DNA of 64,000 bases from the human T2T-CHM13v2.0 reference genome, Homo sapiens. The DNA is taken from NCBI RefSeq assembly GCF_009914755.1, contig NC_060925.1, one strand, 5' to 3'. Shown here one piece after another: positions 35,325 to 40,479 of the stretch. The stretch's first letter is position 1. The number at the start of each line of letters is the position of its first letter. Both the position numbers and the translations under genes were made by a program. Under the pieces are notes generated by a model. The model searched no databases and was not told the origin of the DNA. It saw only the letters and a program-made list of their open reading frames with translations.

Positions 35325-39124
<3,800 letters not shown>

Positions 39125-39516
39125 TCAGCTTCCTGGAAGACATGGCTGACCCCTGCCCCTCTGTGGGCCTTAGACGGGAAACATCTGTGCAATGAAAGAG
39201 ACCTCTCAGGTCTGGGAACTCCATACTCTGAGAATCTGTATTTCTGCTCACATTCACATTACTCTCACCAAAAAGAATAGTCATCCATCCGTGGCCTAGG
39301 AGAGAAGGGATGAGCCAGTGGTCCCGCCCTCATTATTGATCCATCAGGTAACTGACAAACTCTAAGGAAGCATCTCTGTTTTTCTGGCCCTGTACTAGGT
39401 TCTGGAAGGCGGTGAGCCAGCAGGCAGGCCTGGGACTGGGAAGCCAGCACTAGGGCTCAGGGCTTCTGTGGCTGCAGAGACATGATCTCCATCCCCCACC
39501 CACGGGCTGCACTGGG

Positions 39517-39593
39517 ACTTACTTGTTCATGAGATCAAAGCCTTGGTCTGACAGCAGGGCCCTGAAGTGCTTGTAGAGGTTGTTGTAGGGGTA
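39517..39593 (-). pseudogene. CDK11 (PITSLRE) kinase exon fragment with adjoining GTAAGT donor
   Basis: Translates YPYNNLYKHFRALLSDQGFDLMN(K), versus CDK11 (H/Y)PYNNLRKRFGALLSDQGFDLMNK; the amino-acid changes are explained by CpG decay. Confidence 0.85.
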
Positions 39594-40479
39594 GAGGCCC
39601 TAGCCCCTGCCAGTCAAGTCCAGCTGGCCTGGTCCCTCCCTCCTAGCCACCCTCTAGGTCCCAGCTTCCTGGATGTCTCAATGACAAAGGCTGCCTACTT
39701 CTCCCCACCAGTGGAGCAGGACTAAAGACTGAAAAAGGCTGGCTACCCCAATGGCCTCACTTGCTGCTGATAAAGTGTCCCCAAATGTCCTTGTGAGGAG
39801 GGCTGAGACCCCAGCCAGTGGCTGTGTGATCCAGAGGACAGCGCAGACCCACACCACGGGCTCAACTGGAAAACACTGGAAGCTGGTTGCAAGGAAGAGT
39901 GGAGGGGTTGCTGCTGCTGCTACTCAGAGAAATGATGGCCACTAGTGGCTGAGCTCTGGTTTGGAGCCAGGGGCTGTGCTGAGTGACAATCCCATTAGAT
40001 TTGTACAGTAAGCCTGTGGGGTGAGAATTGTTGTCCCCACTTCATATGGGAGGAAACCACACCTCAAAGAAGGTAAGGGCTTTCCTGAGATCACACAGCT
40101 AGTAGGTGGCCAAGGCCAGTTTGCTAATGCAACCGGGACCCTGACTGAGAGCCCTGCTCTTAATCCCGAACTTTCCCAGACCTGGGGACTTTAGTCTTAG
40201 ATTCTTCTACTGGTAGTGTGACCTTGGGCAAGACGGATTCCCCACTCTCCCCATTTGTAATAAAGCAGATTTCTCAGTGCCCTTCCAGTTCCGGCATTAT
40301 GTGATTAGCTAGGATTTATACAGAACTTTACAGTTTCTAAAAAAAGCATCTAGCGGGGATCTCACTTATTTCCAGGGACCCTGCAAAGTGAGAGAATGCC
40401 CCTCTATTTGACAGACGTGCAAACTGAGGCTTGGAGAGATGCAGTGACCTGCCCAAGGTCACAGAGCCGGTCAGCCCCA

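What the first reader, a model, noticed from the sequence alone, without database searches (positions are those of the whole stretch)
39400..39600. Orphan CDK11 kinase exon fragment with a splice donor, embedded sense-strand in HTR1D intron 1
Seen: minus-strand 39593->39523 reads TAC CCC TAC AAC AAC CTC TAC AAG CAC TTC AGG GCC CTG CTG TCA GAC CAA GGC TTT GAT CTC ATG AAC AA|GTAAGT, which translates to YPYNNLYKHFRALLSDQGFDLMN-K. It is too short for the ORF track. Known (recalled): CDK11A/B has HPYNNLRKRFGALLSDQGFDLMNK|FLTY, with Y in place of H in mouse and a phase-2 intron at exactly this point. The three replacements (CGC>TAC, CGC>CAC, C-GGG>C-AGG) are all CpG decay, as expected for old neutral methylated DNA. 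Similarity starts mid-exon and continues into GC-rich intron-like sequence rather than the next exon, with no polyA tail or TSD. Inference: this is not a processed pseudogene but a small piece of CDK11 genomic DNA or unspliced pre-mRNA captured at a break. It leaves a consensus GTAAGT donor ~1.4 kb downstream of HTR1D exon 1, in the right orientation to be co-opted for an alternative 5'UTR exon that would also add an upstream ATG.
Basis: partly seen in the sequence, partly recalled or inferred. Interest (0 to 1): 0.8.

Follow-up and report, generated by a model that had tools for sequence, protein, structure and literature searches.

The report
Stray CDK11 gene scrap in HTR1D intron
A roughly 194-base scrap of the CDK11 kinase gene, covering the end of one exon and the start of the next intron, sits alone in the first intron of the serotonin receptor gene HTR1D; it looks like an old, harmless DNA-repair patch and not a working part of either gene.

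Summary
Window 39593->39523 (minus strand) reads YPYNNLYKHFRALLSDQGFDLMN followed by AA|GTAAGT. The 23 residues hit only CDK11B chains in the PDB (3 of 3 hits, E about 1e-6).

A whole-genome DNA search found only two other places, both at about 1.1 Mb on chromosome 1. These are the CDK11B and CDK11A loci.

The homology runs from 39592 to 39399. It covers the last 70 nt of a 149-nt kinase exon plus the first 94 nt of the 204-nt intron that follows (146 of 164 aligned bases identical, 30 extra bases in the window copy). Both ends are abrupt. There is no poly(A) tail, no abutting target-site duplication and no other CDK11 piece in the window.

So it is not a processed pseudogene. A true processed CDK11 copy on chromosome 15 gives the contrast.

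My best reading is a fixed, tens-of-millions-of-years-old templated insertion at a double-strand break, copied from unspliced CDK11 pre-mRNA or DNA and now decaying neutrally.

The GTAAGT donor is real sequence. Its use as an HTR1D 5'UTR exon has no support and could not be tested here. The finding is ordinary and of low interest.

The parts
39523..39593 (-). CDK11 exon-derived segment. It is the last 70-71 nt of a 149-nt kinase-domain exon and reads YPYNNLYKHFRALLSDQGFDLMN plus AA.
   Evidence: PDB hits are CDK11B only. (61 of 70 bases identical to CDK11A/B). (only exon residues 27-49 match). (T at 39593 shared with the chr15 retrocopy).
39399..39522 (-). CDK11 intron-derived segment. The first 94 nt of the roughly 204-nt intron that follows that exon are aligned over 124 nt of window, which carries 30 extra bases relative to present-day CDK11A/B.
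   Evidence: 85 of 94 aligned bases identical. (no homology beyond 39399).
39517..39525 (-). Donor-like site CAA|GTAAGT, inherited from the CDK11 donor CAA|GTGAGC. It matches CAG|GTAAGT at 8 of 9 positions.
   Evidence: it is the only 8-of-9 match among sense-strand GT sites in the 22,272-nt intron. GTAAGT occurs 4 times against about 6.2 expected from base composition.
39528..39530 (-). The ATG of the CDK11 Met codon (..DLMNK..). It is the only ATG in the 300 nt upstream of the donor-like site.

Best explanation
Window 39399-39593 is a fixed, old, non-functional templated insertion. A stretch of about 165 nt of unspliced CDK11 sequence was copied into a double-strand break in HTR1D intron 1 in an ancestral germline. 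The stretch comprises the last 70-71 nt of a kinase exon and the first 94 nt of the next intron. The template was either reverse-transcribed CDK11 pre-mRNA or a CDK11 DNA fragment, and it was joined by end joining without LINE-1 target-primed hallmarks. The donor gene stayed intact. The copy has since drifted neutrally, mainly through transitions, many of them at CpG sites, plus small indels.

Shown: the identity of the source, the extent of the copy, the retained intron, the abrupt ends, the lack of poly(A) and TSD, and the isolation of the piece.

Inferred: the break-repair mechanism, RNA versus DNA as template, the age, and neutrality. The age is roughly 25-60 Myr. It predates the CDK11A/B duplication, because both paralogues are identical over the segment.
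For: Source and extent. The genome-wide search gave only the CDK11B and CDK11A loci. The exon at those loci matches CDK11B PDB chains at 5e-29. The alignment covers 70 nt of exon plus 94 nt of intron, with 146 of 164 bases identical and 30 extra bases in the window copy. The exon-intron structure of the source was read directly.

Isolation. Of 2960 blastn hits between 38 kb of the CDK11B region and the window, one was single-copy and all the others were multi-copy repeats, Alu by eye. The upstream half of the exon and the next exon are absent from the window.

Abrupt ends. The flanks align to the CDK11 flanks no better than shuffles do: 1479 of 2000 and 1197 of 2000 shuffles reach the observed score. 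Both flanks are single-copy in the genome at this tool's sensitivity.

No poly(A) at the 3' end and no direct repeat abutting both junctions.

Fit to a known kind. Onozawa & Aplan 2016 (PMC5110952, parts 1-2 of the text read) describe class 2 templated sequence insertions. These have no TSD or poly(A), show NHEJ-type junctions, measured 73-414 bp (median 191 bp) in experiments, have an intact donor, are enriched for transcribed sequence, and include intronic templates.

Contrast. The chr15 CDK11 copy has three exons joined without introns and an AATTAAA signal followed by an A-rich tail.
Against: No empty site in another species could be examined, so the insertion event, its junction microhomology or filler bases, and its age are not directly shown. 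After about 11% divergence a short TSD or a short A-tail could have decayed. A 6-nt GGGCC(T) motif lies a few bases outside each end (seen by eye; no family pairs the two flanks), and an A-rich stretch AGAAAAACAGAGA lies 14 nt past the 3' end. Nothing distinguishes an RNA from a DNA template. Neutrality is assumed from the substitution pattern, not tested by conservation.
Confidence: 0.65

Rival explanations
1. LINE-1-mediated retrocopy of an intron-retaining CDK11 transcript, 5'-truncated in the usual way, whose 3' part (rest of the intron, downstream exons, poly(A), 3' TSD) was later removed by a deletion.
For: CDK11 mRNA has been retrocopied by this route at least once, in the chr15 copy. 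That copy is also 5'-truncated within the same exon. The retained intron is short, about 204 nt, and short introns are often retained (general knowledge, not tested here).
Against: This reading needs a second, precisely placed deletion. There is no poly(A), no TSD and no downstream exon anywhere in the window. The 3' end falls in mid-intron.
Confidence: 0.12
2. Last recognisable remnant of a larger DNA-level duplication of the CDK11 region into 1p36.12, the rest having been deleted or overwritten by repeats.
For: The intron is retained, donor and copy lie on the same chromosome arm and the same strand, and 1p36 is known for duplications (recalled).
Against: Only one single-copy match exists between 38 kb of the CDK11B region and the 64-kb window. 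At about 11% divergence the neighbouring sequence would still align, yet both flanks are at chance level immediately beyond the ends. The 5' end falls inside a conserved exon whose first half is missing.
Confidence: 0.08
3. One reading: the inherited donor CAA|GTAAGT has been co-opted, so that some HTR1D transcripts include an extra 5'UTR exon ending at 39523. That exon would add an upstream ATG (39530-39528).
For: The site lies on the sense strand 1.36-1.43 kb downstream of exon 1. It is the only 8-of-9 match to CAG|GTAAGT in the 22,272-nt intron. One crude acceptor candidate at 39882 would give a 360-nt exon.
Against: RefSeq lists a single two-exon HTR1D transcript (hub table). GTAAGT hexamers are no more frequent than expected, 4 observed against about 6.2. 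The -1 position is A, not G. The acceptor evidence is weak. Pseudo-exons of this quality are common in long introns (general knowledge). No paper found links the two genes in this way.
Confidence: 0.04

Closest known systems
Class 2 templated sequence insertions (TSI/TSIP; Onozawa & Aplan, PMC5110952)
   Same: A short patch copied from a distant transcribed locus with the donor left intact. The size (164 nt of source, 194 nt now) is close to the reported median of 191 bp. There is no TSD, poly(A) or poly(A) signal. Intronic sequence can serve as template.
   Different: The described cases are experimental, or polymorphic in living humans, and are more than 95% identical to their donor. This one is about 89% identical, hence old and presumably fixed. 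Its junction details (microhomology, filler bases) cannot be read without an empty site.
Processed pseudogene (LINE-1-mediated retrocopy), for example the CDK11 copy on chromosome 15 (L013 1501-2094)
   Same: Both derive from the same CDK11 exon, both start in the middle of it, and both are decaying without an open frame beyond the fragment.
   Different: The chr15 copy has its introns removed, runs to the 3'UTR and ends in a poly(A) signal plus an A-rich tail. The HTR1D piece keeps the intron and stops in the middle of it.
Unprocessed (duplicated) pseudogene fragment
   Same: It retains an exon-intron junction and intron sequence.
   Different: It spans only 164 nt of the source, with abrupt ends inside an exon and inside an intron, and no neighbouring CDK11 sequence is nearby.

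Membership tests
Class 2 templated sequence insertion | Inserted sequence is templated from a distant locus and the donor remains intact | tested here: met
   The donor exon and intron are intact at both CDK11 loci, about 22 Mb away.
Class 2 templated sequence insertion | Short patch, within the reported 73-414 bp range | tested here: met
   164 nt of source, 194 nt in the window. The range comes from PMC5110952.
Class 2 templated sequence insertion | No target-site duplication of 5 bp or more at the junctions, no poly(A) tail, no poly(A) signal | tested here: met
   No direct repeat abuts both ends and the 3' end has no A-run. Caveat: at about 11% divergence short signals could have decayed.
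Class 2 templated sequence insertion | NHEJ-type junctions (microhomology, microdeletion, filler bases) relative to the empty site | not testable with these tools
   No orthologous empty site is available, because no other vertebrate genomes are held.
Processed pseudogene | Introns removed | tested here: not met
   94 nt of the following intron are present directly after the donor.
Processed pseudogene | 3' end at the mRNA poly(A) site, with an A-tail and flanking TSD | tested here: not met
   The piece ends in mid-intron, with no tail or TSD.
Segmental duplication / unprocessed pseudogene | Collinear homology extending over neighbouring exons and introns | tested here: not met
   One single-copy match in 38 kb against 64 kb. 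The flanks are at chance level.
Exonised element (alternative 5'UTR exon of HTR1D) | Spliced transcripts that use the donor | not testable with these tools
   No RNA-seq is available. The hub's RefSeq table shows only the two-exon transcript.
Exonised element (alternative 5'UTR exon of HTR1D) | Usable donor plus an upstream acceptor on the sense strand | tested here: inconclusive
   The donor matches the consensus at 8 of 9 positions. A home-made scan found only one crude acceptor candidate, at 39882.

The most novel reading that the evidence does not exclude
The inherited CDK11 splice donor, which drifted from GTGAGC to a near-perfect GTAAGT, is used in some tissue. HTR1D would then produce a primate-specific transcript with an extra 5'UTR exon carrying an upstream ATG. 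Alternatively, the strong U1 site could affect processing of the 22-kb intron. Either way, a break-repair patch would have donated a working splice signal to a receptor gene.
Probability: 0.04. Interest if true: 0.5.

Novelty: new member of a known kind. Interest (0 to 1): 0.15.

Why it matters
The piece matters mainly as a clean, datable example of a non-LINE-1-type templated patch that carries an exon-intron junction and is fixed in the human genome. It shows that such patches can persist for tens of millions of years and can place a consensus-like splice donor inside another gene's intron.

It also gives a small by-product. Together with the chr15 retrocopy, it suggests that CDK11 had Tyr where human CDK11B now has His at the first codon of the fragment.

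It has no evident bearing on HTR1D or CDK11 function.

Tried and rejected
- **Empty site via repeats.** I looked for the flanks as repeats, so that paralogous repeat copies could show the empty site. Both flanks are single-copy, so this route failed.
- **Hidden extension of homology.** I looked for homology beyond either end by local alignment against shuffles and found none.
- **Other CDK11 pieces in the window.** DNA and protein searches found none.
- **TSD search with 6-nt seeds.** Nothing abuts both ends.
- **Neighbouring Alu.** I considered the Alu at 38808-39104 as the 3' partner of a chimeric retrocopy. I rejected this because it lies on the opposite strand, has its own TSD and is separated by 294 nt of unique DNA.
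- **Earlier findings.** This service was closed to the session.
- **Literature.** Searches on HTR1D+CDK11, CDK11+pseudogene/retrocopy and HTR1D+alternative 5'/intron 1 returned nothing on this fragment in the 2, 10 and 10 rows listed.
- **Cross-species dating and RNA-seq junction checks.** Neither was possible with the tools held.

Full report
**1. The observation**

On the minus strand, window 39593->39523 reads TAC CCC TAC AAC AAC CTC TAC AAG CAC TTC AGG GCC CTG CTG TCA GAC CAA GGC TTT GAT CTC ATG AAC AA. It is followed by GTAAGT. The translation is YPYNNLYKHFRALLSDQGFDLMN. The strand is the sense strand of HTR1D, and the place lies in its only annotated intron (hub table). The 5' end of the fragment is 1,359 nt downstream of exon 1's last base (40952), and the donor-like GT at 39522 is 1,430 nt downstream.

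**2. Identity of the source**

- A DNA search of the window's own 3.1-Gb assembly with 39300-39750 returned the window itself and exactly two other places. These are C1:1,070,726-1,070,889 and C1:1,137,814-1,137,977, both on the minus strand and both at E 6.5e-29.
- The exon at these places translates to ELGTPSEKIWPGYSELP(A/V)VKKMTFSEHPYNNLRKRFGALLSDQGFDLMN. It matches PDB chains named cyclin-dependent kinase 11B at E 5e-29.
- The copy at 1.07 Mb encodes PAVKK, like the PDB CDK11B sequence. The copy at 1.14 Mb encodes PVVKK. I therefore call them CDK11B and CDK11A; assigning the second to CDK11A rests on recall.
- The window's 23 residues alone hit only CDK11B chains (3 of 3 hits, E 1.1e-6 to 1.6e-6).

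**3. Anatomy**

- In the CDK11 locus the exon is 149 nt long. It ends ...CTCATGAACAA|gtgagc, a phase-2 boundary. The next exon (GTTCCTGACCTACTTC..., FLTYF...) follows after about 204 nt of intron.
- The homologous block is window 39592-39399, matching 164 nt of CDK11.
- It comprises the last 70 nt of the exon, with 61 of 70 bases identical, and the first 94 nt of the intron, with 85 of 94 aligned bases identical. The window copy has 30 extra bases, and CDK11 has no extra bases.
- Overall, 146 of 164 bases are identical. The 18 mismatches are 13 transitions and 5 transversions, 8 of them at CpG positions of CDK11. The K2P distance is 0.12.
- CDK11A and CDK11B are identical over these 164 nt and 99% identical over 501 nt. 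The copy was therefore made before the two genes diverged.

**4. Edges and isolation**

- Local alignment of the 79-88 nt outside each end of the window block against the corresponding CDK11 flanks scores no better than shuffled sequence. On the 3' side 1479 of 2000 shuffles reach the observed score, and on the 5' side 1197 of 2000 do.
- tblastn with the whole 49-residue exon matches only residues 27-49. The next exon has no match better than E 0.17 anywhere in the window.
- blastn of 38 kb around CDK11B (C1:1,062,001-1,100,000) against the 64-kb window gave 2960 hits at E<=1e-5. In the E<=1e-3 run, filtering for matches of low depth on both sides left one, which is this block. The rest were multi-copy repeats that look like Alu to my eye.
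- The flanks 39593-40000 and 39105-39398 have no other copy in the genome at this tool's sensitivity.
- The nearest repeat is an Alu at about 38808-39104. It lies on the opposite strand and has its own CTCAGTCTTT target duplication, so it is an independent event.

**5. Hallmarks of retroposition**

- The 3' end of the block (..TTCCAGAAC|CTAGTACAGGGCC..) has no A-run. An A-rich AGAAAAACAGAGA lies 14 nt further on.
- A search for direct repeats with 6-nt seeds found 9 short families in 39330-39660. None of them pairs the two flanks of the block.
- By eye, a 6-nt GGGCC(T) motif occurs 4-8 nt outside each end. I regard this as within chance.

A genuine LINE-1-type CDK11 retrocopy exists for comparison. 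It lies at C15:63,111,300. Three consecutive CDK11 exons are joined there without introns (L004 8818-8935, 8423-8616 and 8074-8344 map to L013 1501-2094). The junction ...GAACAAG|TTCCTGACC is spliced, and the copy ends in AATTAAA followed by a decayed A-rich tail. The HTR1D piece differs on every one of these points.

**6. Polarising the changes**

A three-way alignment compared CDK11B, the HTR1D copy and the chr15 copy (A1).

- The first codon is TAC in both copies and CAC in CDK11B.
- GCC, TTT and GAT are also shared by both copies, against GCT, TTC and GAC in CDK11B.
- The simplest reading is that these differences arose in the CDK11 lineage after the copies were made. The TTC/TTT site sits in a CpG, so it could instead be parallel decay.
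- It follows that the T at 39593 probably belongs to the copied block.
- Changes private to the HTR1D copy in the exon part number 5, or up to 7 if parallel CpG decay is counted, out of 70 nt. Three to five of them are at CpG sites.
However, CGC>TAC needs one step that is not CpG decay.

**7. Age (inference)**

- Per-lineage divergence is about 5% in the intron part (K2P 0.103 divided by 2) and 7-10% in the CpG-rich exon part.
- With primate neutral rates recalled from the literature, this suggests roughly 25-60 million years, that is, within anthropoid primate history.
- The counts are small (18 differences) and no outgroup was available, so this is a rough estimate and a prediction, not a result.

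**8. Mechanism**

The combination of features is as follows: a short patch, a distant transcribed donor left intact, an exon-intron junction retained, ends inside an exon and inside an intron, and no TSD or poly(A).

This matches what Onozawa and Aplan call class 2 templated sequence insertions. Those are patches of 73-414 bp (median 191 bp) at double-strand breaks. They are often derived from reverse-transcribed RNA, include intronic sequence, and have NHEJ-type junctions (PMC5110952; I read parts 1 and 2 of 4 of the text).

I put about 0.65 on this reading. Whether the template was unspliced pre-mRNA or DNA cannot be told from the sequence.

The rivals are:
- An intron-retaining LINE-1 retrocopy later truncated by a deletion, about 0.12.
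- The remnant of a larger duplication, about 0.08.
- Functional co-option, about 0.04.
- The remainder is unassigned.

**9. The donor site**

- The copy reads CAA|GTAAGT where CDK11 has CAA|GTGAGC. Relative to present-day CDK11, the copy differs by G>A at +3 and by one extra base that places T at +6.
- On the sense strand of the 22,272-nt intron there are 4 GTAAGT hexamers (about 6.2 expected from composition) and 8 GTRAGT. This is the only GT site matching CAG|GTAAGT at 8 of 9 positions.
- A crude home-made scan found one acceptor-like site upstream, at 39882, which would give a 360-nt exon. The only ATG in the last 300 nt is 39530-39528.
- This shows that a pseudo-exon is conceivable, not that it is used. 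RefSeq has one HTR1D transcript without it (hub table). I had no RNA-seq data, and the literature searches listed nothing relevant.

**10. Verdict**

The thing itself is an ordinary neutral relic of a known kind of event. The specific fragment does not appear in the papers returned by three searches. I could not check genome-browser self-alignment tracks or pseudogene catalogues, where it may well be visible. Interest is low.

Noticed in passing
L013 1501-2094 (G000 C15:63,111,300-63,111,893 approx., + strand): A 5'-truncated processed pseudogene of CDK11. Three exons are joined without introns, with an AATTAAA signal and a decayed A-rich tail. It starts within the same exon as the HTR1D fragment and abuts an Alu at its 5' end.
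   Followed up: partly
window 38808-39104 (+ strand): A full-length Alu with a T-run on the minus strand and a CTCAGTCTTT target-site duplication on both sides. It lies 294 nt from the CDK11 fragment and is unrelated to it.
   Followed up: partly
alignment A1, columns 51, 86, 107, 110 (window 39593 and exon part): Both independent CDK11 copies share TAC, GCC, TTT and GAT where human CDK11B has CAC, GCT, TTC and GAC. This suggests a Tyr-to-His replacement and synonymous changes in the CDK11 lineage after the copies were made.
   Followed up: partly
window 39445-39500 approx. (- strand): The window copy carries 30 bases with no counterpart in the present CDK11A/B intron, mostly in one block of about 17-26 nt. 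Whether this is an insertion in the copy or a deletion in CDK11 cannot be decided without an outgroup.
   Followed up: no
L002 vs L004 (C1:1.14 Mb vs 1.07 Mb): The two CDK11 paralogues are 99% identical over 501 nt. In this exon they differ by PVVKK against PAVKK, and the 1.07-Mb copy matches the PDB CDK11B sequence.
   Followed up: partly
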